Shown here in pieces: positions 48,433 to 58,904 of a stretch of 64,000 nt of DNA. Where the stretch lies: the IMG/VR virus record IMGVR_UViG_3300014208_000026, positions 32,001-96,000 of that record; one strand, written 5' to 3'. The notes beneath the pieces are model-generated. The model did not search any database. It saw only the letters and a list, made by a program, of their open reading frames with translations, and had not been told where the DNA came from. The position numbers were made by a program, and so were the translations under genes. This DNA comes from a virus (Duplodnaviria; Caudoviricetes). Position 1 is the stretch's first letter. Each line of letters begins with the position of its first letter.

Positions 48433-50304
48433 ATGGCTGTCCAAAAACCGCGTACACGTCGAGTGTCTATCGTTGGGAATCGAGGGACCCCCCGGAGGGT
48501 CGTGGCAGGGGCCATGCGGTCGAACGGGTTGGAGGGGGCTGTTGAAGTCTCTAAAGTAAAGCCTCGTCCGGCAACCCTGGGCCGTCCCGCCGTCAGGACG
48601 GGAAAGCCAGGGAAGATTGCCTCTGGCTCGATGCGGTTGGGTACTTCCGCTTTCGGCATGCCCGGGATTGGGAACTCTACGATGGGGCAGGGAGGTAACT
48701 TCTACTCCCCTGAGTTGTCGACTGACTTTTTGGAATTGCCGCAGAGCAGGGACGAAGAACGAAACTACTATCGGTTCTTCTACAAGCACGATCCTTTCGT
48801 CGGTCAGGCTATTGACCTCCAGACAGATATTCCGCTCTCGAAGATTCGATTGGGTAAGCCTGAGATTCCAGAGTTTGATTTGGACTATTTGAACAGCCCC
48901 GAAGGAAAGGAATTCTTGAAGGGGGCGGACAAACTGGCCAAGCAGTCCCAGCGGTTCTGCAAGAAGTGGAACCGTAGGATTCACTTGCTGAAACAACTTC
49001 TGGATATCTCCCATGATTTGAACCTTCTCGGTGAGGTTTTCGTTTTCATAGAGGACGACAATCCAGAGATGCCTGACGACGTGAGATACAACACGGTCCT
49101 GGCGATTGATCCCGAAGGGGGGGAGCCAGTAGAGCAGAAGCATGAGCGCGAAGACGCGGATGAGCGGGCCTACGAGTGGCTCCGGACGCATTACAAGGGA
49201 TGGACCGCCATGCGGGTTCTGCCGCCCGAGCAGATCAGTATGAAGTCTTTCCCCTTCACTGACGAGAGGCTCATCCAGCTCATTATTGATAGTAAGACCA
49301 AGGATCTCGTGAACCAAGCTATGGCGGGGGATCCCGACTCCCAGCGGATCATGGAAAGTCTGCCTGAGGATGTGGTTAATGCTGTGCTAGAAGGGGTCAA
49401 CATTCCTTTGAACACGGACCCTGAAGCAGGATCTTTCGTACATTATATATCTCGTCGTAAGTCTCAATATGAAGAGAGAGGCACTTCTGTATTATCAAGA
49501 TGTATAAGAACACTTGTTTTTATGGACAAATGCCGTCAGGCAAATACTTCGATTGCATCTCGTCATATGACACCTATGCGTATTGTTTGGGTTGAAGATG
49601 GCGATGCGGCTGATGTTGAAGAATTGCGTGAACAAGTTGATATGGCGCTTCAGGACCCCGACTATTCGATCATCACGAACTATCAGGTCAACTGGGAGGA
49701 GATGGGGGCGGAGCAGCGGCTTCTGGATCTAACTAGTGAGTACGAGCGAGCAGACCGTATGTTGTATGCCGGTCTGGGAGTTACGGAGTCGCTGTTGTCC
49801 GGTGAGTCCTCCTACTCAGGGGATAGGATCAACCTGGAGGTGATCAACACCCGTTTCATGCTCTTCCGCGAGTTGATGCAAGAGTTTGTCGAAGAGCACC
49901 TCTACGCTCCGATGTGTCGCCGGATGGGTTACGTGGTCACGGACGAGTGGGGGGACGAGATTCCGCTGGTTCCTGGACTGTCCTTTACTCGACTGGCTCT
50001 GCGGGACAATGCGGACACGTTCGACTCCATGCTGAACCTCTACCAGAAGGGCAGTTTGGATATTGACGTGATCCTGGAACTCTTGAATATCGATCCCGAG
50101 ACGACCCGCGAGAAGCTGAAGCGGGATCTGTTCACTCTCCAGGACGCCACCTTCAACGAACTTCTGCGTAGCATCTACAACGACGCGGCTCAGAAGCTCA
50201 ACGACAATTCCAACATGATCGACCTCATGGCGAAGAAGATGGGGATCGACGGGCTGGTGTACAAGAAGGCACAGGAAGAAGGCGACGGTCGGTTCGGCGG
50301 CTAG
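48433..50304 (+). CDS. probable portal protein
   Basis: 623 aa downstream of terL; YRFFYKHDPFVGQAID, RGTSVLSRC and LYAGLGV patterns. Confidence 0.75.
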   Translation: MAVQKPRTRRVSIVGNRGTPRRVVAGAMRSNGLEGAVEVSKVKPRPATLGRPAVRTGKPGKIASGSMRLGTSAFGMPGIGNSTMGQGGNFYSPELSTDFLELPQSRDEERNYYRFFYKHDPFVGQAIDLQTDIPLSKIRLGKPEIPEFDLDYLNSPEGKEFLKGADKLAKQSQRFCKKWNRRIHLLKQLLDISHDLNLLGEVFVFIEDDNPEMPDDVRYNTVLAIDPEGGEPVEQKHEREDADERAYEWLRTHYKGWTAMRVLPPEQISMKSFPFTDERLIQLIIDSKTKDLVNQAMAGDPDSQRIMESLPEDVVNAVLEGVNIPLNTDPEAGSFVHYISRRKSQYEERGTSVLSRCIRTLVFMDKCRQANTSIASRHMTPMRIVWVEDGDAADVEELREQVDMALQDPDYSIITNYQVNWEEMGAEQRLLDLTSEYERADRMLYAGLGVTESLLSGESSYSGDRINLEVINTRFMLFRELMQEFVEEHLYAPMCRRMGYVVTDEWGDEIPLVPGLSFTRLALRDNADTFDSMLNLYQKGSLDIDVILELLNIDPETTREKLKRDLFTLQDATFNELLRSIYNDAAQKLNDNSNMIDLMAKKMGIDGLVYKKAQEEGDGRFGG

Positions 50305-50361
50305 TTTTTTTTTTGCCTATAGGGTCTGTCTGGGTAGGTGAGTTTCTTAACTTGAAAGGTT

Positions 50362-50856
50362 ATGACCATGACGACCCTGAAGAGCGCGTGTGTGAAGTTG
50401 GCGTATGAGAATCCGGAACTCCGCCCTCTGCTGATGCCTCTGCTGCGAAGCAAGACGGCAACCGAATTCCCCTCAAAAGAGGCTCTTGAGAAGTACCTCA
50501 AGGATCACCCCGGGGCAAACCGGTCGAACCATAAAGTTGTCGAGAACAAGGGTAAGGGAGAGGCCAAGACTGAGGGCAAAGAGGATTCTAAGGCTGTCTC
50601 CATGTCTCGTGAAGGCTACAAGGCTATTGCAAATTCCCTCCGTGGGTTTGGCAGTTCAGGTTCTTGGGAGCACGTTATTTCCTATGCCATTTCGGATAAG
50701 CCCATGGAAAGGAAGCACGTGGATAAGGTTCTTTCCGACATCAACGGGTATCTGAAGAACTGGAAAGCAACCTCCGAGAGTAACCGTTGGGGGGACAGGG
50801 ACAAGAAGAGCCTGACTCGGGCCAAGGGCATTCTGGAGAATTGGTCCAAGAAGTAG
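50362..50856 (+). CDS. putative virion cargo protein with N-terminal tag
   Basis: LKSACVKLAYENPELRPLLMPLLRSKTAT. Confidence 0.75.
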   Translation: MTMTTLKSACVKLAYENPELRPLLMPLLRSKTATEFPSKEALEKYLKDHPGANRSNHKVVENKGKGEAKTEGKEDSKAVSMSREGYKAIANSLRGFGSSGSWEHVISYAISDKPMERKHVDKVLSDINGYLKNWKATSESNRWGDRDKKSLTRAKGILENWSKK

Positions 50857-50919
50857 TTCCCATTCTCCCCACTCTCGCGCAATAACCAGTCTATTCCTTT
50901 CCTCTAATAGAACCTCTGC

Positions 50920-52026
50920 GTGAGTTCTGCCGTGGGTGCTATTCTATACTTGACCAACGTCAAGGTTTTCGAAGAAGCCTTGGCAAACTTGAATCGGTCG
51001 ATTCTCTACCCGACTGACCGTTGGGATCTGGCTATCAACTACGACACGCTCATGAGAAACGGGAAGCGTTGGGCAGACTACATCATCGACAAGCTGTCTG
51101 TTCCTCCCGCCTATGCCAAGTCGGTGGAAATGATTTCCAGGGAGTTTGCCAAGCCTCGGCGTCCCAAGGATATTCCAGCTTGGTTCGAGAAGAACAAGAA
51201 GCGGTTGGAAGTCCTGCTCCTGGCTGACAAGTGGCCCCAGGCTTCTGAGAACGAGGGTACAGAGGGAGAGGTTTTCAAACACGGGGGGTTGACAATCCAC
51301 AACGTCATTCGAGCAAGCGGTAAGGCTCTCGAAGATGCTTTGAAGACCCTCGATATCGCGATGAGGAATGCTGCGGGTACGGGGATCTCGGATTTCCGGT
51401 CGGTGGTGTATGGGGACGTGTACCTCGTCGGGCAGTTGGGCCGAAAGAACTGGGCCGCTTGGTATATGCCCGCCAAGGATATGATTTACCTCCGACCTGG
51501 GGTCAGGGGCTTACCTCCCGAAGAGTGCGCCCAGCACCTGTTGCACGAGTTCGGGCACCGGTACTGGAAATTGAAGTTGTCTCGTGAGGTAATGGGGACT
51601 TGGAACTCACACCACTACCTCATGGAACATGGAATCGGTGCGGGTGGAGACGCTGAAGCCAAAATGCCGGAGGTCGGGGATGCACTCCCTATGAATGTGG
51701 ATAGGAAAAAGGTCAAGGTTGAAAAGATTGAGAAGTCGACTTATTCTCTTGTTGCCGTAGATACGGGGGCTCCTGCGGGCACAATATCTTTTAGTCAGCT
51801 ATTCAATTGGCTGTACAATTATTCAATAGCCGAGAAGTTTCCGACCCTGTATGCCCGCACGGATGCCGAAGAGCACTTCTGCGAAGCATTGTCCCTGAGG
51901 GCTCTGGGCAAGCTGAAGGCTCACAACCTGGAAGCATTCGACAAGATTGTTCTGGGAGAAGGGAAGGGACAGGGGGCTGTGAGGGTTGCGGGTCGGTGGT
52001 TGCGAGGAAAGGGCTGGGCAAGATGA
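50920..52026 (+). CDS. zincin metallopeptidase (HEXXH) protein with C-terminal tag
   Basis: LHEFGH...YARTDAEEHFCE; ends RVAGRWL. Confidence 0.75.
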   Translation: MSSAVGAILYLTNVKVFEEALANLNRSILYPTDRWDLAINYDTLMRNGKRWADYIIDKLSVPPAYAKSVEMISREFAKPRRPKDIPAWFEKNKKRLEVLLLADKWPQASENEGTEGEVFKHGGLTIHNVIRASGKALEDALKTLDIAMRNAAGTGISDFRSVVYGDVYLVGQLGRKNWAAWYMPAKDMIYLRPGVRGLPPEECAQHLLHEFGHRYWKLKLSREVMGTWNSHHYLMEHGIGAGGDAEAKMPEVGDALPMNVDRKKVKVEKIEKSTYSLVAVDTGAPAGTISFSQLFNWLYNYSIAEKFPTLYARTDAEEHFCEALSLRALGKLKAHNLEAFDKIVLGEGKGQGAVRVAGRWLRGKGWAR

Positions 52027-52787
52027 ATCACGCTACATCAGTTGCTTTGATGAAGTTCCTTTCAGGGGTCGCTAGGAGACTCGGAGTGGGAAATGACACA
52101 TATATTGTGGGAGGAGCTGTGCGTAATTTTACGCTTGATCCAACAGGACTCAAGTATCCGATCAAAGATTTGGATATTGTAATAGATCCGGTATCTGTAG
52201 GCAGAAAAGATGCTTCTGATTGGTTTGCAAAGCAATTGTCTGAGAACATACCAGCAGAAACCAAGATCGTTACGAATAATTATGGAGTTGCGATATTGTC
52301 GGTAGTTGGGGAATGGGTTCTTGATGGGCAATCTATGCGCGGAGAGGTCATTGAGATTGCTAATGCTCGAAAAGAGAGTTATGGGGGTGGGGATAGTGAA
52401 AAGGATTCGGGAAAAGGATATAAACCTCATATGGTTGAACCAGCGACTATATATGAAGATATAAAAAGAAGAGAGTTCACCATGAATTATCTCCTCTGGC
52501 GTTTGTATGATCTTGCAGATGGTCCAGACAAAGCTGAGATATTGGATCTTGGGGGTTGTGGACTAAGGGATCTTAAAGAAGGTGTGTTGCGTTGCCCCTC
52601 CGATCCGGACAAGACTTTTTCCGATGATCCTAGTAGGCTTTTGAGGCTTTGTAGGTTCTCTGTGAAATACGGCTTTAAGATACCTCCTGAAATAGTAGAG
52701 TCTGCTAGAAGAAATGCGCATAAACTCAAGAACATACCTCCTAGTGCTCTTTCCAATTTACTCATTAAAATACTAGAGGGAAAATAG
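52023..52787 (+). CDS. cca: class II tRNA nucleotidyltransferase (CCA-type), N-terminal piece
   Basis: IVGGAVRN, KDLDI, EDIKRREFTMN, DDPSRLLR. Confidence 0.85.
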   Translation: MNHATSVALMKFLSGVARRLGVGNDTYIVGGAVRNFTLDPTGLKYPIKDLDIVIDPVSVGRKDASDWFAKQLSENIPAETKIVTNNYGVAILSVVGEWVLDGQSMRGEVIEIANARKESYGGGDSEKDSGKGYKPHMVEPATIYEDIKRREFTMNYLLWRLYDLADGPDKAEILDLGGCGLRDLKEGVLRCPSDPDKTFSDDPSRLLRLCRFSVKYGFKIPPEIVESARRNAHKLKNIPPSALSNLLIKILEGK

Positions 52788-53822
52788 ATGCCTGCTTCAC
52801 CTGAAAAAAGATGGACTGAAGAACAAGACAGCACCCTGCGTGAAGGTTGGGCTGGTGGCGTTTCCGCAGAGGATCTCGCGTTGAAGTTGTTAAGAACGGA
52901 AACATCTATTCGCGGACGAGTTGCGATACTGGGAGTGCGGAGGAGTCCGGGATATATTTCTTCTATTCGTTCAAGTCTGAGTGTTGGTAAGCGTTTTAGT
53001 TGGACGGAAGAAGAGGAGAATATGCTACGTGTCTTTTACGAGGAGCAAGGGCTGTCTTACGAGGAGGTGGCTGTTAAATTACCTGTTGCTAAGACCTATA
53101 CTGCAATCCGGATGAAAGTACGGAAACTAGGGCTTCACCACACTAAAGAACAGTTTCTAGCAGTTTGTAGTCGTATGTCTATGGGGGACAGAAATGGCAT
53201 GTACGGAAAACCCGGGATTAATCTAGGGAAATCTCCTTCGGAAGAAACACGGAATAAGATAAGAGAGAACAAGCTGGAGGGTTTTGCTTCTGGGAGGCTA
53301 CATGGCATGGTTGGCCCTCTTAATCCTGCATTTGGTAAACCCAGCTCTATGCGCGGTAAACATCTTCCGGATTCTGCAAAGCAGACTCTTAGCCAGAAAG
53401 CCCGTGTCCGGTGGTTGGATAGGTCTGAGCAATATAAGTCAGACCATTTGTTAAAGATGCGTAAAGGCTGGATAACCTGGGCTATGAGAACGGAGGAAAA
53501 CAGAACTTGGATTGAGAAACTGGTAGCAATATGGCTGCAAGAAGAGGCTCTGGCATTTACGGAGCAGACACAGGTCGGTTTCTATATTGTGGATTTCCTA
53601 GTCGGTAATAAGGTGATCGAAACGCAAGGCGACTACTGGCATGCCAATCCTTCTGTTTACAGTCAGTTGGACTCCACGCAGAAATCAAATGTACGGAGAG
53701 ACAAGGCCAAAGCAACTTACCTGAAAAATCGAGGTTTCGGATTTCTGTCTTTGTGGGAGTTAGACCTGAAAAAGAATCCCGAGGGCTGTCGAAATCTACT
53801 ACGGGAGTTCTTAGCCTCATGA
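52788..53822 (+). mobile_element. free-standing homing-endonuclease-like ORF (Myb/HTH repeats, NUMOD3, Vsr/EDxHD-like nuclease)
   Basis: WTEEQD and WTEEEE repeats, GMYGK...SEETRNKI, IVDF...IETQGDYWH. Confidence 0.8.
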
Positions 53823-55939
53823 ATACAACTGCTGCAAAAAAAGCCCTGCTCGAAATGCAAAGGCTTGGTCTGCTCGAAGTCATCAAGGAGATCGTCCAGG
53901 AGAACAAGGCGTTCCGGAACGCCCTTGGGAACTGGTCCGAGAAGACGGACCTGACGTTCTTGTTCGACCTCATGGATCTTGGTATGCCGGTAGGACGCGG
54001 GCTCTCTTTCCTCAGCAAGCCGGAGCAGGAGAGGGTTCGAGAAATCACCGTCGATATGGACGCCGCTGAAGGCCGCAAGTTCGTGACCATTCTGGAGCAG
54101 CCCGGACAGGTTATCAGCACTCCAGCTCTCATGGAAGAGTTCAATCTGAAAGGCCCCCAGGTTCGGCAAATCATGTTGACCGCGAGGGCTCTGTTGCTTG
54201 ACCGTCCAGAGTTGGCTCAGGACGCTGCAAAGTGGGAAGGGTTGGTTCGGGACCAGTTGCGGCAGGTTTTGAAGACCGCAGCGTGGGCCCCCTCAAAGAC
54301 CCCTCTTCGCAGAAGTGGCATATCCCGTTCATGGGATGCTTTCGCCAAATCCCATCGCAAGAACTTCTGGTATCTGCCCTATACCGTGGCCGCGAACGGG
54401 GAGATGATCGAAGATCAGTTGAAGCGTATGTACGTGCGGTACTGGACGGAGGACCCTACCACTGCGGACGTTACGTTGGGGGTGTTCCTACGGGGACACG
54501 AAGAGTTCCTGCGTAAGCGTGGAGAGGCAAACCAGAGGGCTCTGGACAACGCAGGCGATCAAGAGGCCCTGTTGGGCCGCTTGATGGCCGGAACGGCCTC
54601 TGCAGAAGATGTACGCGAGATCGGCAAGCTGTGGTCGAAAGACAACGTGTACACCTCCGATACCCGCAGAGCAAAAGATACGGTCAAGCGTAGAATACTT
54701 GAGCTGGCTCGACGACACCATTGGATGTCCGGTTACGGGGTGGACAAGCGGGTTACGAAGTACCCGTACATTTTGTACGTCGACACGCCCTTTGGTCAGG
54801 TGGCTTTCCACGAACAGTTGCCCTCTGTGCATCGGGAATATCCTGGGGAGTGGGACCGGAAACACGCAACGTGGGAAAGGGCCGCTAAGGTCTTGGAACG
54901 GTACGGGTTGAAAGACGGCGGCGGGGGAGCAACGATGGAGAGTAGAGTCGCATCGAGGTATCTGCAAGGCGGTGTGGGGATGGATAAGCAAAGTTCGGTT
55001 CGGCAGGCTCTTTTACATGTGACCGGTTCCCCCTCAATCACCCCCTGCCCCAAGAAACCCGACCGAGTGTGGACGATCCTGCGGGATAAGCACCCTCGAT
55101 TGCCGTTCACTCCGATCTTTGAAGTGAATGCGTTCCCCGAAGACCAGATTCATGACTGGAAGTGGTCTCAGGGGAACCTCCGGTATTTCAGCAGGATCAC
55201 TACCGAGAATCAGCCCCGGTGGTTGCTTTTGGAGTTCGGGAAGGAAGAACCGAAGATGTGCCCGAAGTGCGACAAGGATTTCCCCGCTGGTTCGAACTTC
55301 TGCCCCGATTGTGGGGTAAAGCTGGTAAGCAAAGTTGCATCGAGATACTTGTGCACAGCAGCGGCAGAAGAGGTCGTCGACTCCAACCTCAAGGGTGTCG
55401 TCGAGGTTCCCAGGAACACGTTCCCTGTGGAGGTTCTCCCTCCCAAGAAGAAGCGGAAAAAATGGCCCTTCGAAGGGTTCATTGATTTCCAGGGGTTGGA
55501 GATCGACGTAGAGAACGACAAGGGATCGGTGCGGAGCGGGGTGTCAGAAGATGGAACCCCGTGGGCTGTCGAAATGTTCTGGCCGTACGGTGAGATCAGA
55601 GGGACAGAAGGGGTCGACGCTCCTGACGCCTTGGATGCATACGTAGGCCCCAACCACGATTCCTCTCTTGTCGTGGTTATTCACCAGCATGACCCAGACA
55701 CGGGAAAGTACGACGAGGACAAGGTCATGCTGGGGTTCGACTCTACTGAGGAAGCGATCGGGGCGTACAAGAAACAGTACAGCAAGCCTGGGTTCTATGT
55801 AGAAGGTGAGTATACCGAAATGCCCATTGGGCAGTTCTGGCGGTGGGTGCATGATGACAAGAACAGGGGCAAGAAAGTGAAGGCTCGGGTTCAAAGAATC
55901 GCCTCTAGGTGGTTGAGGGAGGATTCTTTTGCAGAGTAG
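53819..55939 (+). CDS. polyvalent protein: CCA enzyme C-terminal piece, unknown domains, zinc ribbon and pyrophosphatase-like domain
   Basis: Begins KKALLEMQRLGLLE (continues the CCA body domain); CPKC..CPDC; PYGEI..GVD..DALDAY...DEDKVMLGF. Confidence 0.75.
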   Translation: MNTTAAKKALLEMQRLGLLEVIKEIVQENKAFRNALGNWSEKTDLTFLFDLMDLGMPVGRGLSFLSKPEQERVREITVDMDAAEGRKFVTILEQPGQVISTPALMEEFNLKGPQVRQIMLTARALLLDRPELAQDAAKWEGLVRDQLRQVLKTAAWAPSKTPLRRSGISRSWDAFAKSHRKNFWYLPYTVAANGEMIEDQLKRMYVRYWTEDPTTADVTLGVFLRGHEEFLRKRGEANQRALDNAGDQEALLGRLMAGTASAEDVREIGKLWSKDNVYTSDTRRAKDTVKRRILELARRHHWMSGYGVDKRVTKYPYILYVDTPFGQVAFHEQLPSVHREYPGEWDRKHATWERAAKVLERYGLKDGGGGATMESRVASRYLQGGVGMDKQSSVRQALLHVTGSPSITPCPKKPDRVWTILRDKHPRLPFTPIFEVNAFPEDQIHDWKWSQGNLRYFSRITTENQPRWLLLEFGKEEPKMCPKCDKDFPAGSNFCPDCGVKLVSKVASRYLCTAAAEEVVDSNLKGVVEVPRNTFPVEVLPPKKKRKKWPFEGFIDFQGLEIDVENDKGSVRSGVSEDGTPWAVEMFWPYGEIRGTEGVDAPDALDAYVGPNHDSSLVVVIHQHDPDTGKYDEDKVMLGFDSTEEAIGAYKKQYSKPGFYVEGEYTEMPIGQFWRWVHDDKNRGKKVKARVQRIASRWLREDSFAE

Positions 55940-58904
55940 CGCCCACAAGAGGGTCATAGGAGGGATACGTACAGCAGCTTTCTGCCACCTCGGCCCTCTC
56001 TATCATGGAACCAAGGATCCCGAAGGGCTCCTGGAAGCCCAGACCTTTGATTGGAGCCGGTTGCAGTCTCGGGATTCGGGTTTCTTCGGGAACGGCTTTT
56101 ACCTCGCAGACAGTCCGCAACATGCTCGATCCTATGGGGGGACGGTCTTGGAAGTGGCCCTGAAGCCCTCGGCCAAGATCCTGTGCGCCATGGAGCCTGG
56201 AGTCTTCTCTGGAATGACCCCCACGAAGTCTCCCTCTTACCAGGAGGAATTCGCTGTTTTCATGACCGGACGGATTGTGAAGCATCGGGGGGATATAGAA
56301 AAGGCCAAGAAAATCGTAGAGGGGGAGTACACCCCGGGAGGCACTTCTTTCGACTCCATTGGTTGGAAAAAAGATATCACAATGTGGGTACGGGACGAGA
56401 AGGTGGCCGATGCTATCAATTGGGGGTCTGAGACAATTGTCCTGAACCCCCAAGCTATCGCCAGCATCCGACGAATCCGGTACCGTAAGACTCAAGCAAG
56501 TGCGGCTGACGGCATCAAGACCGGCAAAGGCAAAGGGGTCGGTTTCTTCATCCCGCTCCCGTTAGATGAAGCCGCCAAGTTCCCCTCTCTCGGAGACCAG
56601 GATAAAAGCCCGAGCCACGTTACCTTTTTATACGTTGGTGACGTAACTCCCGAGGAGGAGCCAAAACTGCTGAGTGTCGCTCGCAACGTGTTCCGCTCTT
56701 TCGCCAGGGGTCCTGTGAGAGCCCATTCCCTGCCCGTGGAATACTTTGTCCATCCGGCCATGGGGCGTCGGGTAGCTGTCGTACCTTGGCAGTTCGACAA
56801 GGATCTGGCCGGACTCCGCTGGAAGCTGCGGGATGCTCTACAGGACGCGGGTTTCAAGGTAGAGGACAGTTTTCCTCTTGTATACCGTCCCCACACGACT
56901 CTCCGGTATTGTGAGAGCCTCCAGGAGGAGTACAAAGGCTCAGTGCCAGTTGCGGGCTGGTCTTTCGACGCGGTTGAGATTTGGGGCCTGCCATATTTGT
57001 ACCGGATTCCGTTTGGGGAAGGTTGTTCAGTGAGGGTTGCCGGAGCCCCCCTGTCCTTTGCTCCTGCGGAGGACAAGAGAGGCAAGCCCCTCTCCCCTGG
57101 GGACTATGTGCAGCTTCGAGGTCGGGACGGATGGGTGGCAATTAGCCCCAACGTCCAGGGGTTCTATTACCTCGACGAAGAAAATACGGGGATGGCACCT
57201 CAACTTGTTATCGTGACAACGGATTGGAAGGGGGCTGTTAAAACCTCTGAGGTTGTCAAGACGCAGACCGTCAGGATGTCCGCGTATAAAGATCCTCCCG
57301 AGGACGTGGCTCGGGTTCTGCAGACGCTTAGGGTAAAAGTCTCCCGTACTGCTCAGTGTGGGGGATTGGCTTCGAGAGTAGCCAGCCGATTCCTGGAGGC
57401 TTCCAAGAGTCTCCCCATGAAAGGGCGTCGTTACGGATTCTTCATCTACGGGGACAAGACCGGGGCCTGGGAGTTGGGAGATAGTGCTCGCTGGGGAGGG
57501 TTGGAAGACGGAGCGTGGCAGGCTATCCCGAGCTTCTCTTCGAAGAACGAGTGGCGCAACCTGTCTGTAGAGGGGGCTACTGAGCATCACCCTGGATTCT
57601 TGAAGGCTCTCAGGGAGATGGTTCGAGAGTATCCCGAAATGACAGATTGGTGGGTCCAGTTCGACGGGCCTTGGATTGAAGTACGGGACTTGGTAGGAAG
57701 CGGCTCCGTTTCTCCCAAGTTCAATTGGGAGTCCCTCAAGCTATACCACGGCACCAGCATGGCGGCTTGGGAGAAGATCCAAAAGCAAGGGCTCCTCCCT
57801 CGCAATCTGAGCGGGATGGGGCCTTCGTATGGGACGCTATCGCAGGCAGGGGAAGGGCATAAAGACGCTGTGTACCTCACGACCCAGATTGGCACTGCTA
57901 GAATGGCCGCCAGAGACGCGGCTCGCGTCACAAAGAGTAAGCCTATAGTTTTGCAGATAAGGGGGCTGGATGCGGAGTTCGTGGTTGCCGACGAGGATAG
58001 CCATTCGGCCAACCCTGAAGTGAGCCTCCAGACCTTGGGTTCTGTGGCTTACGTAGCCCCGATTCCTGCAAGTAGGGTGGAAATGTTCGAGTATTTAGTG
58101 GACAGCGGGTGGACTAAAACCGCTCGTTTCGATCCCGAACTGGAGGGGTTGGGCGGGTTGCTTCGGGGAGAACCGACCACTCTGTACCACGGGACCACAC
58201 GGCAGTTCAAGAAGTTCGACTTGTCCAAGTCCCGTACGGAGTTGGTGAATGATTTCTACGGGGCTGGCATTTTCCTGACTCCTTCTCAGAGTGTTGCTTG
58301 GGATTACGCCGAGGCCAATAGAAACATTGGATTACCGTCGTCGATTGTGCAGGAACTCAAGAGGAAGAATCCCGTTGCGGGGGATTTCTTGGAAGCTCTG
58401 GTCAAGCACGGGGATGCTGCTTGGGATATAAAGTTGCCTAGCGGGCGCACTTGGGCACAGTCCTTCGCCAGCGACGAGCTAGAGGCGGGGGTCGATCCGA
58501 ACAGCATCAGTGACATTGCGCAGTACGTCGAGGGCAGCAAGGTTCATCCGTTGGCCGACCAGACCGGTTTTGTTAATATCTTCAGTACCTCTACAGGAGC
58601 CCCTGAGTGGCTGTACGACCTGTTGGCAGAGGTGGGCCTGGACGACAAAAAGTACCGTCCCAAGGTCTACGCAGTATCTGTGAAGGTAGACAAGGTGTTG
58701 GTGACAGCCAAGGAGAGTGAGGCTAAGAAGGCCCACAGTCGGGGTTACGATGCGGTGATATTCCACGGGTCCAGGCTGGTGGGCGGAGTACCCGAGGTTG
58801 CAGTTTTCGACCCGAGCAAGGTTCGTATCCTGAATGTTCGTACGGGGTCCTTGGTTCAACGAGTTGCCTCCCGATACTGTGAAGGGGGTCTGAGTGGGAA
58901 GTAG
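55929..58904 (+). CDS. polyvalent protein: three ART-fold domains plus 2H phosphoesterase
   Basis: Three LYHGT motifs (GFYLA, VYLTT, GIFLT) and two HxT motifs (SHVTF, PHTTL). Confidence 0.8.
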   Translation: MQSSAHKRVIGGIRTAAFCHLGPLYHGTKDPEGLLEAQTFDWSRLQSRDSGFFGNGFYLADSPQHARSYGGTVLEVALKPSAKILCAMEPGVFSGMTPTKSPSYQEEFAVFMTGRIVKHRGDIEKAKKIVEGEYTPGGTSFDSIGWKKDITMWVRDEKVADAINWGSETIVLNPQAIASIRRIRYRKTQASAADGIKTGKGKGVGFFIPLPLDEAAKFPSLGDQDKSPSHVTFLYVGDVTPEEEPKLLSVARNVFRSFARGPVRAHSLPVEYFVHPAMGRRVAVVPWQFDKDLAGLRWKLRDALQDAGFKVEDSFPLVYRPHTTLRYCESLQEEYKGSVPVAGWSFDAVEIWGLPYLYRIPFGEGCSVRVAGAPLSFAPAEDKRGKPLSPGDYVQLRGRDGWVAISPNVQGFYYLDEENTGMAPQLVIVTTDWKGAVKTSEVVKTQTVRMSAYKDPPEDVARVLQTLRVKVSRTAQCGGLASRVASRFLEASKSLPMKGRRYGFFIYGDKTGAWELGDSARWGGLEDGAWQAIPSFSSKNEWRNLSVEGATEHHPGFLKALREMVREYPEMTDWWVQFDGPWIEVRDLVGSGSVSPKFNWESLKLYHGTSMAAWEKIQKQGLLPRNLSGMGPSYGTLSQAGEGHKDAVYLTTQIGTARMAARDAARVTKSKPIVLQIRGLDAEFVVADEDSHSANPEVSLQTLGSVAYVAPIPASRVEMFEYLVDSGWTKTARFDPELEGLGGLLRGEPTTLYHGTTRQFKKFDLSKSRTELVNDFYGAGIFLTPSQSVAWDYAEANRNIGLPSSIVQELKRKNPVAGDFLEALVKHGDAAWDIKLPSGRTWAQSFASDELEAGVDPNSISDIAQYVEGSKVHPLADQTGFVNIFSTSTGAPEWLYDLLAEVGLDDKKYRPKVYAVSVKVDKVLVTAKESEAKKAHSRGYDAVIFHGSRLVGGVPEVAVFDPSKVRILNVRTGSLVQRVASRYCEGGLSGK

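What the first reader, a model, noticed from the sequence alone, without database searches (positions are those of the whole stretch)
52023..55939. CCA-adding enzyme in pieces, split by a free-standing endonuclease with no room for an intron
Seen: the N-piece ends ...SNLLIKILEGK-TAG, the endonuclease ATG follows immediately, and its TGA overlaps the ATG of MNTTAAKKALLEMQRLGLLE. That sequence reads as the direct continuation of the class II nucleotidyltransferase body domain. There is no non-coding flank. The N-piece is AT-rich like the invader. Established: mobE splits nrdA of phage Aeh1 into two functional pieces. Inference: a genes-in-pieces tRNA nucleotidyltransferase held together by translational coupling.
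Basis: partly seen in the sequence, partly recalled or inferred. Interest (0 to 1): 0.8.

Follow-up and report, generated by a model that had tools for sequence, protein, structure and literature searches.

The report
Phage tRNA-tailing enzyme gene split by nuclease
A giant groundwater phage carries its tRNA nucleotidyltransferase (CCA-adding type) gene as two separate genes, because a selfish homing-endonuclease gene sits in a surface loop of the enzyme with no intron or intein to remove it. This is a known kind of gene fracture, seen here in a new host gene and recurring at the same spot in many related phages.

Summary
Window 52023-52787 encodes the head and neck (254 aa) of a class II tRNA nucleotidyltransferase. 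Its TAG is followed at once by the ATG of a 344-aa Vsr-like (EDxHD family) homing endonuclease (52788-53822). The endonuclease TGA overlaps, as ATGA, the ATG of a 706-aa ORF (53819-55939) whose first ~155 residues are the missing body and tail.

Uninterrupted alleles are the rule in related phages and join the two pieces with no residues missing. The break lies in a loop between two helices. I found five more endonuclease-occupied alleles at the same loop, and two alleles where the endonuclease has decayed to an 18- or 73-codon remnant while the gene stays split. Split alleles are scattered over the enzyme tree.

No intron model matches, there is no intein at this site, and TAG is a normal stop in this genome. 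In the window, the N-piece plus endonuclease form a sharply AT-rich block (GC3 0.35 and 0.45, against 0.64-0.69 in the flanks). That points to recent import.

A co-fold supports re-association of the pieces (0.72, best control 0.02), but such a pass is expected for halves of one fold. Enzyme activity, endonuclease cleavage and absence of splicing are untested.

This is a new member of a known kind, like Aeh1 nrdA/mobE and the intein-less "fractured" SbcD-like gene.

The parts
50920..52026 (+). Upstream polyvalent-array ORF (368 aa; weak MPTase-PolyVal match; ends ...RVAGRWL...). Its TGA overlaps the N-piece ATG as ATGA. It marks the 5' edge of the AT-rich block.
   Evidence: PF18818, E 0.057, below the cut-off; GC3 0.640
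52023..52787 (+). N-piece, 254 aa: head and neck of a class II tRNA nucleotidyltransferase. Motifs GGAVRN (residue 30), DLD (49-51), RREFTMN (149), DDPSR (201). Ends ILEGK then TAG.
   Evidence: PolyA_pol 6e-12; phrog_2244 3e-27, profile 3-173/392; it keeps all family-invariant residues
52776..52780 (+). GAGGG, a Shine-Dalgarno-like element for the endonuclease, inside the last codons (Glu-Gly) of the N-piece, 7 nt before ATG 52788.
   Evidence: A comparable element stands before the endonuclease start in all 6 occupied alleles. It is weak on its own: 42% of random positions score as well.
52788..53822 (+). Free-standing homing-endonuclease gene, 344 aa. It has two GcrA/Myb-like HTH repeats (residues ~6-50 and 68-120; the first is extra relative to the 5 homologues), two NUMOD3-like GK repeats (~133-200, read by eye) and a Vsr-like EDxHD nuclease domain (~238-344) with E243, D269, H285 and D305.
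   Evidence: catalytic residues invariant in 6 homologues; profile vs PDB: Vsr 1cw0 1.4e-6; I-Bth0305I 3r3p 1.1e-5
53803..53807 (+). GGGAG, a Shine-Dalgarno-like element for the C-piece, inside the endonuclease's conserved C-terminal tail (..LREFL..), 11 nt before ATG 53819.
53819..54283 (+). NTase body and tail part of the C-piece (residues 1 to ~155). It starts with ATG inside ATGA and continues the helix bundle broken at the loop.
   Evidence: 187 homologues; in most the match lies about 250 residues or more into the protein, behind a head domain
54284..55939 (+). Rest of the 706-aa C-piece ORF: an unknown region, RVASRYL (residue 376), a zinc ribbon (~479-500), KVASRYL (505), an InPase pyrophosphatase domain (553-677) and RIASRWL (693).
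   Evidence: (InPase 3.4e-35)

Best explanation
A site-specific, free-standing homing-endonuclease gene of the Vsr-like EDxHD family has inserted into the coding sequence of a phage class II tRNA nucleotidyltransferase (CCA-adding-type fold). The insertion lies in the loop between two helices near the neck/body boundary, with no intron or intein around it.

The element brings or uses three things: a stop for the upstream half, its own start directly behind that stop, and, in its 3' end, a ribosome-binding site and start codon for the downstream half (ATGA overlap). The locus is therefore most likely read as three tightly coupled cistrons.

The two enzyme halves are made as separate polypeptides. 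They most likely re-associate non-covalently through the helix bundle that the break interrupts (N-piece residues ~206-253 with C-piece residues ~1-39).

In this phage the whole N-piece plus endonuclease came in recently as one AT-rich block. The likely route is homing or recombination with co-conversion of the upstream half, next to the resident GC-rich C-piece.

Shown: the anatomy, the homology, the existence of uninterrupted, occupied and decayed alleles, and the composition break. Inferred: endonuclease activity, coupled translation, assembly and activity of the two-piece enzyme, and its role (tRNA 3'-end repair or maturation by a protein set that lies in a polyvalent, probably virion-packaged, array).
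For: Junctions: TAG|ATG and ATGA.

Continuity of the enzyme:
- Uninterrupted alleles join the pieces with nothing missing.
- Pfam PolyA_pol_RNAbd spans the junction in L002 but is cut at position 25/64 in the window.
- Most close homologues of the N-piece are uninterrupted proteins of about 390-430 aa.

Fold: the AlphaFold model of uninterrupted L002 (residues 1-400, pLDDT 92.2) puts the break in the loop at 247-250, between helices 234-246 and 251-260. Its best 46 Foldseek matches in the PDB are all class II CCA-adding, A-adding, CC-adding enzymes or poly(A) polymerase, over about 400 columns.

Endonuclease:
- DUF559/MTES_1575 plus GcrA/Myb HTH domains.
- E243, D269, H285 and D305 are invariant in 6 homologues.
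- The profile hits Vsr (1.4e-6) and I-Bth0305I 3r3p (1.1e-5).

Same-site recurrence:
- L001, L042, L043, L044 and L045 all have stop/start abutment and 4- or 8-nt overlaps.
- Split alleles sit at 7 or more places in the NTase tree among uninterrupted ones.
- 9 of the 150 listed cluster representatives of the body domain begin at the break.

Persistence of the split after the endonuclease decays:
- L009 has an 18-codon remnant ORF with the same 2-nt spacing and 8-nt overlap.
- L046 has a 73-aa remnant of the nuclease domain between intact N (241 aa) and C (165 aa) genes, on contigs from 3 samples.

Selection: between split alleles pN is 0.23-0.27 (N) and 0.32-0.51 (C), against pS 0.69-0.93. The window's pieces keep every family-invariant residue.

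Recent import: GC3 0.349 and 0.449 against 0.64-0.69, with sharp edges at both ends.

Assembly: co-fold score 0.72, best of 3 controls 0.02. The runs agree in at least 98% of contacts and the partner's pLDDT is at least 83. In the tool's calibration the mark was reached by 58 of 80 solved complexes and by 2 of 110 mismatched pairs.

This is the only PolyA_pol head in the 257-kb record.
Against: - There is no RNA or protein data, so absence of splicing and presence of both polypeptides are not shown.
- The co-fold pass is what one expects for two halves of a fold whose single-chain structures are solved. It shows likeness, not binding.
- The pN/pS contrast partly reflects history before the splits, if the invasions were independent.
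- In this phage the block is unameliorated, so the present pair of pieces may be young and untested by selection.
- The Shine-Dalgarno-like matches are weak individually.
- CCA-adding specificity is not distinguishable from related activities by these data. Motif E is not conserved and motif B reads RRE rather than RRD.
Confidence: 0.8

Rival explanations
1. The insertion killed the gene in this phage. The two halves are recent, still-open remnants that no longer form an enzyme, and the NTase module is dispensable cargo of a polyvalent array.
For: The N-piece plus endonuclease block is compositionally foreign and so recent, which means open frames here prove little. Polyvalent modules are gained and lost freely (PMC5512222). 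The N-piece comes from another lineage than the C-piece; the closest N-piece is only 66-68% identical.
Against: All family-invariant residues are kept in both pieces. Other lineages keep both halves open with tight coupling even after the endonuclease has decayed. In L001 the split is compositionally ameliorated. pN is well below pS. This is the only NTase head in the record.
Confidence: 0.13
2. The N-piece alone (head and neck, with all catalytic motifs) is the working enzyme. The C-piece body is no longer part of it and serves only as the N-terminal domain of the downstream multidomain protein.
For: Motifs A-D all lie in the N-piece. The C-piece is fused to about 550 further residues with other domains.
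Against: In class II enzymes the body and tail hold the tRNA (established knowledge; tRNA complexes such as 5hc9 and 4wc2 are among the fold matches). The predicted interface is extensive, with about 71 contacts. Stand-alone C-pieces of about 150 aa are kept next to N-pieces in L043, L044 and L046, where no other domain is attached.
Confidence: 0.05
3. A hidden self-splicing intron (group I or II) or a split intein restores a single mRNA or protein.
For: Vsr-like endonucleases do occur in group I introns and between split inteins (PMC2677866, PMC3239194). The same genome has a split-intein locus with such an endonuclease (L040).
Against: No Rfam family matches at E up to 10 in 51800-54400, nor at E up to 1 in six related loci. 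There is no non-coding sequence at either edge. The pieces carry no intein blocks and only about 3 extra residues. Remnants of 57 and 222 nt still leave two separate ORFs.
Confidence: 0.02
4. TAG read-through or recoding makes an N-piece-endonuclease fusion. The two are in the same frame, separated by one TAG.
For: The frame is shared in the window and in L001.
Against: In L042-L045 the two ORFs are in different frames, and the stop is TGA, TAA or TAG. TAG is the commonest stop of long + strand ORFs in the window (20 TAG, 13 TAA, 10 TGA).
Confidence: 0.01

Closest known systems
Aeromonas phage Aeh1 nrdA split by the free-standing endonuclease gene mobE ('genes in pieces'; Crona et al. 2011, PMC3045599)
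   Same: An endonuclease gene with no intron or intein lies inside an enzyme gene. Two polypeptides must assemble. The endonuclease's 3' end overlaps the start of the downstream half (overlap noted in PMC2677866).
   Different: The endonuclease is Vsr-like (EDxHD), not HNH. The host gene is a tRNA nucleotidyltransferase, not RNR. The tails created here are only about 3-6 residues, whereas in Aeh1 the insertion-derived tails are essential interaction domains. Function is shown for Aeh1 and not here.
'Fractured genes' and the intein-less SbcD-like locus with a Vsr-like endonuclease (Dassa et al. 2009, PMC2677866)
   Same: The same endonuclease family, the same layout (N half, endonuclease, C half), overlap of the endonuclease's end with the downstream start, and a phage/metagenome origin.
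   Different: 26 of their loci rely on split inteins, and this one has none. It matches their single intein-less case, but in a new host gene. It also comes with a population picture: uninterrupted, occupied and decayed alleles at one site.
I-Bth0305I, prototype of the EDxHD homing endonucleases (Taylor et al. 2011, PMC3239194; PDB 3r3p)
   Same: C-terminal Vsr-like nuclease with the E, D, H, D residues, and N-terminal HTH/NUMOD-type DNA-binding modules.
   Different: I-Bth0305I is encoded inside a group I intron in recA. This one is free-standing inside a coding sequence. Sequence similarity is distant (profile E 1.1e-5).
Class II CCA-adding enzymes, A-adding and CC-adding enzymes, and poly(A) polymerase (e.g. 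PDB 1miv, 3h37, 1vfg, 3aqk)
   Same: Head domain with GGxVR and DxD, RR(D/E) motif B, (E/D)DxxR motif D, and helical neck, body and tail. Whole-length fold match of the uninterrupted homologue.
   Different: About 15-20% identity. Motif E is not conserved. It is often embedded in or next to polyvalent proteins and fused to an InPase pyrophosphatase or preceded by a 2H phosphoesterase. Substrate and specificity are untested.
Polyvalent proteins of phages (Iyer et al. 2017, PMC5512222)
   Same: The neighbours carry ART-PolyVal, InPase and a weak MPTase-PolyVal match. The array lies next to the portal gene, as described for packaged phage-type polyvalent proteins.
   Different: A text search of that paper found no mention of a CCA-adding-type NTase, and it lists pol-beta NTase only for conjugative-element proteins. 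Here the array is cut into several ORFs, one cut being made by a mobile endonuclease.

Membership tests
Class II tRNA nucleotidyltransferase / poly(A) polymerase superfamily | PolyA_pol head domain with GGxVR(D/N) and the DxD metal carboxylates | tested here: met
   PF01743 6.1e-12, above the cut-off. GGAVRN at residue 30, D49 and D51; invariant in 21 homologues.
Class II tRNA nucleotidyltransferase / poly(A) polymerase superfamily | Motif B (RRD-like) and motif D ((E/D)DxxR) in the neck | tested here: met
   RREFTMN at residue 149 and DDPSR at 201. R149, R150, D202, P203 and R205 are invariant. Motif B reads RRE, not RRD.
Class II tRNA nucleotidyltransferase / poly(A) polymerase superfamily | Helical body and tail following the neck in one fold | tested here: met
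   Model of uninterrupted L002, pLDDT 92.2. The top 46 PDB fold matches are all of this superfamily, over about 400 columns. The window's C-piece residues 1-155 align to that part.
CCA-adding enzyme in the strict sense | Adds C, C, A to tRNA 3' ends (as opposed to A-only, CC-only or poly(A)) | not testable with these tools
   Needs an enzyme assay. Sequence hits to poly(A) polymerase, A-adding and CCA-adding enzymes are equally good.
EDxHD (Vsr-like) homing endonucleases | Vsr-like nuclease domain with the conserved E, D, H, D residues | tested here: met
   E243, D269, H285 and D305 are invariant in 6 homologues and align to Vsr E25, D51, H69 and D97. Profile E-values: 1.4e-6 to 1cw0 and 1.1e-5 to 3r3p.
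EDxHD (Vsr-like) homing endonucleases | N-terminal modular DNA-binding region (HTH/NUMOD) | tested here: met
   GcrA 9.6e-9 and a weak Myb match; GcrA structure match. The NUMOD3-like GK repeats were seen by eye only.
EDxHD (Vsr-like) homing endonucleases | Mobility: same insertion site in diverged alleles, with empty sites in relatives | tested here: met
   6 occupied, 2 decayed and many empty alleles at one loop, scattered on the tree.
EDxHD (Vsr-like) homing endonucleases | Cleaves the uninterrupted allele near the insertion site | not testable with these tools
   Needs an in vitro cleavage assay.
Group I / group II intron | Conserved catalytic RNA core around the ORF | tested here: not met
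   No Rfam match at E up to 10 in 51800-54400, and none at E up to 1 in L001, L009 and L042-L045. There are no non-coding bases at either edge.
Split-intein 'fractured gene' | Intein N- and C-fragments at the broken ends | tested here: not met
   No intein domain in either piece. Only about 3 extra residues relative to uninterrupted alleles.
Genes-in-pieces by a free-standing endonuclease (Aeh1 nrdA/mobE type) | Two ORFs collinear with an uninterrupted homologue, with an endonuclease gene between them and no splicing element | tested here: met
Genes-in-pieces by a free-standing endonuclease (Aeh1 nrdA/mobE type) | The pieces assemble into an active enzyme | tested here: inconclusive
   Co-fold 0.72 against a best control of 0.02, with at least 98% contact agreement and partner pLDDT of at least 83. 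This is a prediction only, and is expected for halves of a solved fold. Activity is untested.
Phage-type polyvalent protein array | Characteristic domains (ART-PolyVal, InPase, MPTase-PolyVal) next to head/portal genes | tested here: met
   ART-PolyVal 1.2e-16 and InPase 3.4e-35; MPTase-PolyVal only 0.057. Portal at 48433-50304.

The most novel reading that the evidence does not exclude
The endonuclease element works as a self-contained gene-fission cassette. Its two ends supply the stop, the ribosome-binding sites and the start that keep both enzyme halves translated.

When the nuclease decays, a short remnant ORF is retained purely as a translational coupler. Examples are the 18-codon ORF in L009 and the 73-codon ORF in L046, both keeping the 8-nt stop/start overlap. 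On this reading a selfish element converts a one-chain tRNA enzyme into a stable two-subunit enzyme, repeatedly and in independent phage lineages.

In the window there is a further consequence. The untagged N-piece could reach the capsid only by riding on the C-piece, which carries the RVASR(Y/W)L tags.
Probability: 0.3. Interest if true: 0.6.

Novelty: new member of a known kind. Interest (0 to 1): 0.45.

Why it matters
It adds a new host gene, a class II tRNA nucleotidyltransferase, to the short list of enzymes known to survive being cut in two by a free-standing endonuclease. Unlike the single textbook case, it comes with a natural series of alleles at one site: empty, occupied, and decayed but still split. 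That series makes two questions testable. How do selfish nucleases avoid killing their host gene without an intron or intein? Can they drive permanent gene fission?

The break point (the loop at 247-250 of the uninterrupted enzyme) is also a nature-tested site for making split CCA-adding-type enzymes.

The context is a further lead. The enzyme sits among modules that are probably packaged and injected, next to a pyrophosphatase and, in relatives, fused to a 2H phosphoesterase. This hints at a phage kit for repairing tRNA 3' ends early in infection.

Tried and rejected
- DNA search of 51500-56500 against GenBank phages: no match.
- Locus search with the C-piece (residues 1-400) in viral contigs: nothing. 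With the endonuclease: one weak hit.
- Pfam and PHROGs on C-piece residues 1-170 alone: no family. Continuity was therefore shown through uninterrupted homologues instead.
- Sequencing runs: no RNA holder listed. Contigs of two groundwater DNA runs laid on 50000-58000 showed no joint that skips the endonuclease. The second sample carries the endonuclease (an identical contig covers 53152-53724), so no empty-site variant of this phage was found.
- DNA alignment of the L009 spacer to the endonuclease genes: not significant. The remnant reading rests on layout and on the MAG.../...GCR... residues only.
- dN/dS: synonymous sites are saturated, so only pN against pS is reported.
- Promoter and terminator scan of 50300-56200: at chance level.
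- In-frame N-piece-endonuclease fusion by read-through: rejected, because the frames differ in 4 of 6 alleles.
- tRNA genes as clients of the enzyme: none found in the window or in the 257-kb record.
- Literature search for an endonuclease-split tRNA nucleotidyltransferase: none found in the searched library.

Full report
**Setting.** The window is bases 32001-96000 of a 257-kb IMG/VR virus record (CheckV completeness 49%, so probably a huge phage) from a groundwater metagenome. The region of the finding lies just downstream of the portal gene (48433-50304; phrog_16240, 6e-31). It sits in a run of abutting + strand ORFs with hallmark polyvalent-protein domains: a weak MPTase-PolyVal match (50920-52026), InPase (3.4e-35) and ART-PolyVal (1.2e-16) (Iyer et al. 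2017, PMC5512222).

- ORF 52023-52787 (254 aa) has a PolyA_pol head domain (6.1e-12) and matches the PHROG 'tRNA nucleotidyltransferase' over profile positions 3-173 of 392.
- It ends ...ILEGK-TAG. ATG 52788 follows with no spacer and opens a 344-aa ORF.
- The TGA of that ORF (53820-53822) overlaps ATG 53819 of a 706-aa ORF.
- The N-piece start overlaps the stop of the upstream ORF in the same ATGA fashion.
- TAG is an ordinary stop here: 20 TAG, 13 TAA and 10 TGA among long + strand ORFs.

**The downstream ORF continues the enzyme.** On its own, the first 170 residues of the C-piece match no Pfam or PHROG family. Relatives settle the matter.
- A scan of viral contigs with the N-piece gave 37 loci at 34-66% identity. 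In about 25 of them (about 18 distinct), the N-piece match and the match to C-piece residues 1 to ~150 are contiguous in one frame.
- An example is L002 6001-7848, a 615-aa NTase-InPase fusion.
- Aligned with 20 such alleles, the joined window pieces lack nothing and have about 3 extra residues.
- Pfam PolyA_pol_RNAbd runs across the junction in L002 (residues 211-265) and L029, but stops at profile position 25/64 in the window's N-piece.
- Of the 120 closest N-piece homologues in the 5.8-billion-protein collection, nearly all are 377-444 aa.
- An exhaustive HMMER search with C-piece residues 1-160 found 187 proteins. In most, the match lies 240 or more residues into the protein. Many of these are polyvalent proteins of up to 3381 aa.

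**What the enzyme is.**
- An AlphaFold model of uninterrupted L002 residues 1-400 is confident (pLDDT 92.2, pTM 0.85).
- Its best 46 PDB matches are all class II CCA-adding, A-adding or CC-adding enzymes, or poly(A) polymerase, aligned over about 400 columns.
- The window's N-piece has GGAVRN, DLD, RREFTMN and DDPSR and every residue that is invariant in 21 homologues.
- The specificity (CCA, A, CC or poly(A)) cannot be told from sequence.
- The break corresponds to L002 residues 247-250, a loop between helices 234-246 and 251-260. From memory of the Bacillus enzyme's domain limits, this is near the neck/body boundary.

**What the insert is.**
- The 344-aa protein has two GcrA/Myb-like HTH repeats, two GK-rich repeats that resemble NUMOD3 by eye, and a C-terminal DUF559/MTES_1575 domain.
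- In an alignment with five homologues, E243, D269, H285 and D305 are invariant. They align with Vsr E25, D51, H69 and D97.
- The profile hits Vsr (1cw0, 1.4e-6) and the catalytic domain of I-Bth0305I (3r3p, 1.1e-5).
- This is the EDxHD family of homing endonucleases (Taylor et al. 2011, PMC3239194). The family was first found between the halves of 'fractured' phage genes (Dassa et al. 2009, PMC2677866).

**No splicing element.**
- Rfam (all 4227 families, permissive filters) gives nothing relevant in 51800-54400 at E up to 10. It gives nothing at E up to 1 in six related loci.
- There are no non-coding bases at either edge.
- The pieces carry no intein domain and no extra sequence that could be a split intein.
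- N-piece and endonuclease share a frame in the window and in L001, but not in L042-L045, and the stop codon varies. Read-through fusion is therefore not a conserved feature.

**The same site, again and again.** Short N-piece-like proteins (241-271 aa) in the protein search led to more loci. Together with L001 there are six occupied alleles: the window, L001, L042, L043, L044 and L045.
- Each N-piece ends within 1-2 residues of ...LEG(K/R/G/D) or ...LLEM.
- Each endonuclease starts on or within 2 nt of the stop.
- Each C-piece starts with an ATG or GTG that overlaps the endonuclease stop by 4 or 8 nt.
- All 12 endonuclease and C-piece starts are preceded by a purine-rich element matching 4-6 of 6 bases of AGGAGG at 4-10 nt. 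These lie inside the Leu-Glu-Gly codons of the N-piece and inside the endonuclease's conserved ..(R/L)EFL.. tail.
- A random position reaches that score 42% of the time, and the loci are homologous, so this is only suggestive.
- This is the layout Dassa et al. described. They report overlaps of 6-69 bp, with the downstream start supplied by the invading element.

**Two alleles show the later stages.**
- In L009 the N-part ends ...TLEGR-TAG. Two bases later a GTG opens an 18-codon ORF that begins with the endonuclease-like residues AG and contains GCR. Its TGA overlaps by 8 nt the ATG of an intact 154-aa C-piece.
- In L046 (the same arrangement on contigs from three samples) a 73-aa ORF holds only the distal half of the nuclease domain (..VIETYGDYWH..RRD..LWE..LKEFL). 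It sits between an intact 241-aa N-piece and a 165-aa C-piece, again with an 8-nt overlap.
- So the endonuclease can decay while the gene stays in two coupled pieces.

**Evolution.**
- In a tree of N-parts (120 proteins), the split alleles fall at seven or more separate places among uninterrupted ones. Only the window and L001 are sisters, with support 87/89.
- Nine of the 150 listed 50%-identity cluster representatives of the body domain begin at the break.
- This pattern fits repeated homing into empty sites and/or repeated loss, which is the usual life cycle of such elements.
- Between split alleles, synonymous sites are saturated (pS 0.69-0.93) while pN is 0.23-0.27 for N, 0.29-0.44 for the endonuclease and 0.32-0.51 for C. 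All three genes have therefore been under purifying selection, although part of that history may predate the insertions.

**The window's own history.**
- GC3 is 0.349 in the N-piece and 0.449 in the endonuclease. It is 0.640 in the ORF upstream and 0.691 in the first 165 codons of the C-piece, and 0.57-0.67 further on.
- The change-points coincide with the N-piece start and the endonuclease end, and this is the lowest-GC stretch of the window.
- L001 shows no such contrast.
- The simplest reading is that the whole N half came in with the endonuclease from an AT-richer phage, by co-conversion or recombination ending at the endonuclease, next to the resident C half.
- That agrees with nuclease genes marking boundaries of genetic exchange between phages (title and abstract of PMC10448857, seen; the paper itself was not read).
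- It also means that this phage's pair of pieces is a recent chimera.

**Do the pieces bind?**
- A co-fold of the N-piece and C-piece residues 1-165, each with a 21-row alignment, scored 0.72 (ipSAE; three runs 0.72-0.73). The best of three controls scored 0.02.
- The runs share at least 98% of contacts and the partner's pLDDT is at least 83.
- In the tool's calibration the mark was reached by 58 of 80 solved complexes and by 2 of 110 mismatched pairs.
- The interface is N-piece residues 206-253 against C-piece residues 1-39, that is, the interrupted helix bundle.
- Single-chain structures of this fold are solved, so the pass shows that the halves still look like one fold. It does not show that they bind.

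**Function in context (inference).**
- The record holds no other PolyA_pol head and no canonical tRNA gene.
- In relatives the NTase is fused to an InPase pyrophosphatase (L002), which would remove the PPi product.
- In L009 and L029 it follows a 2H phosphoesterase domain in the same polypeptide.
- Iyer et al. list 2H and InPase among phage-type polyvalent domains that are probably packaged and injected.
- A kit that heals and rebuilds tRNA 3' ends early in infection is a reasonable but untested reading.
- The C-piece carries three (R/K)(V/I)ASR(Y/W)L motifs (residues 376, 505, 693), which earlier notes of this scan read as capsid-loading tags. The N-piece has none. If the enzyme is packaged, the N-piece would have to ride on the C-piece.

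**Comparison and verdict.**
- Intron-less, intein-less fracture of a gene by a free-standing endonuclease is known. Examples are Aeh1 nrdA/mobE, with proven assembly (PMC3045599), fractured gp43 polymerases, and one SbcD-like locus with this very endonuclease family (PMC2677866).
- I found no report of a fractured tRNA nucleotidyltransferase.
- This is therefore a new member of a known kind. It is made more useful by the allele series (empty, occupied, decayed but still split) and by a second kind of invader in the same gene: a LAGLIDADG intein in motif B in L029 and in L031-L034.
What remains open is experimental: that no splicing occurs, that the nuclease cuts empty sites, and that the two pieces make an active enzyme.

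Noticed in passing
L029 4654-8535 (intein about residues 604-1050 of the ORF); also L031, L032, L033/L034: In other phages the same NTase gene carries a full intein (Intein_splicing 5.7e-11 plus LAGLIDADG_3 1.9e-13) inserted in catalytic motif B: ...RREFTFN|C....VVVHN|TLMWRL... The gene is thus a target of two unrelated mobile elements at two sites.
   Followed up: partly
window 54944-54964, 55331-55351, 55895-55915 (C-piece residues 376, 505, 693); also the ends of ORFs 50920-52026 and 55929-58904, and L001, L002, L009, L029, L046: The motif (R/K)(V/I)A(S/G)R(Y/W/F)L recurs at module ends, whether the modules are fused or are separate ORFs. The N-piece has none. Earlier notes of this scan read it as a capsid-loading or processing tag.
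   Followed up: partly
G000:C1:124284-127544 (L040), outside the window: A second Vsr-like endonuclease ORF (ROS/MucR zinc finger plus DUF559) lies between a 259-aa ORF and an ORF that begins with an intein splicing domain (1.7e-12; ...NGILAHN|S). This is a split-intein 'fractured gene' in the same genome.
   Followed up: partly
G000:C1:253423-256671 (L039), outside the window: A DNA-methylase fragment with an apparently intact mini-intein (CLSADTEILT...FRSGN|S) is followed by a 327-aa ORF combining HNH_3 (2e-9) and MTES_1575 (9.5e-9) nuclease domains.
   Followed up: no
window 52788-52994 (endonuclease residues 1-69): The window's endonuclease has an extra N-terminal GcrA/Myb-like HTH repeat, a tandem duplicate of the next one, that the five homologous endonucleases (274-279 aa) lack.
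   Followed up: partly
window 55929-58904; L009 4645-6726; L029 4654-8535: A 2H-phosphoesterase (2',5' RNA ligase-like) module (...SPSHVTFLY...PHxTL.Y...) accompanies the NTase. It is fused upstream of it in L009 and L029 (Pfam 2_5_RNA_ligase2 1.3e-6 in L029). By eye it is also present in the window's next ORF, together with ART-PolyVal. With the InPase domain, this suggests a tRNA-end repair set.
   Followed up: partly
window 54284-55000 (C-piece residues ~160-400): About 240 residues between the NTase tail and the first RVASRYL motif match no Pfam or PHROG family.
   Followed up: no
whole 257-kb record: ARAGORN finds no canonical tRNA gene, although the phage encodes a tRNA nucleotidyltransferase.
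   Followed up: partly
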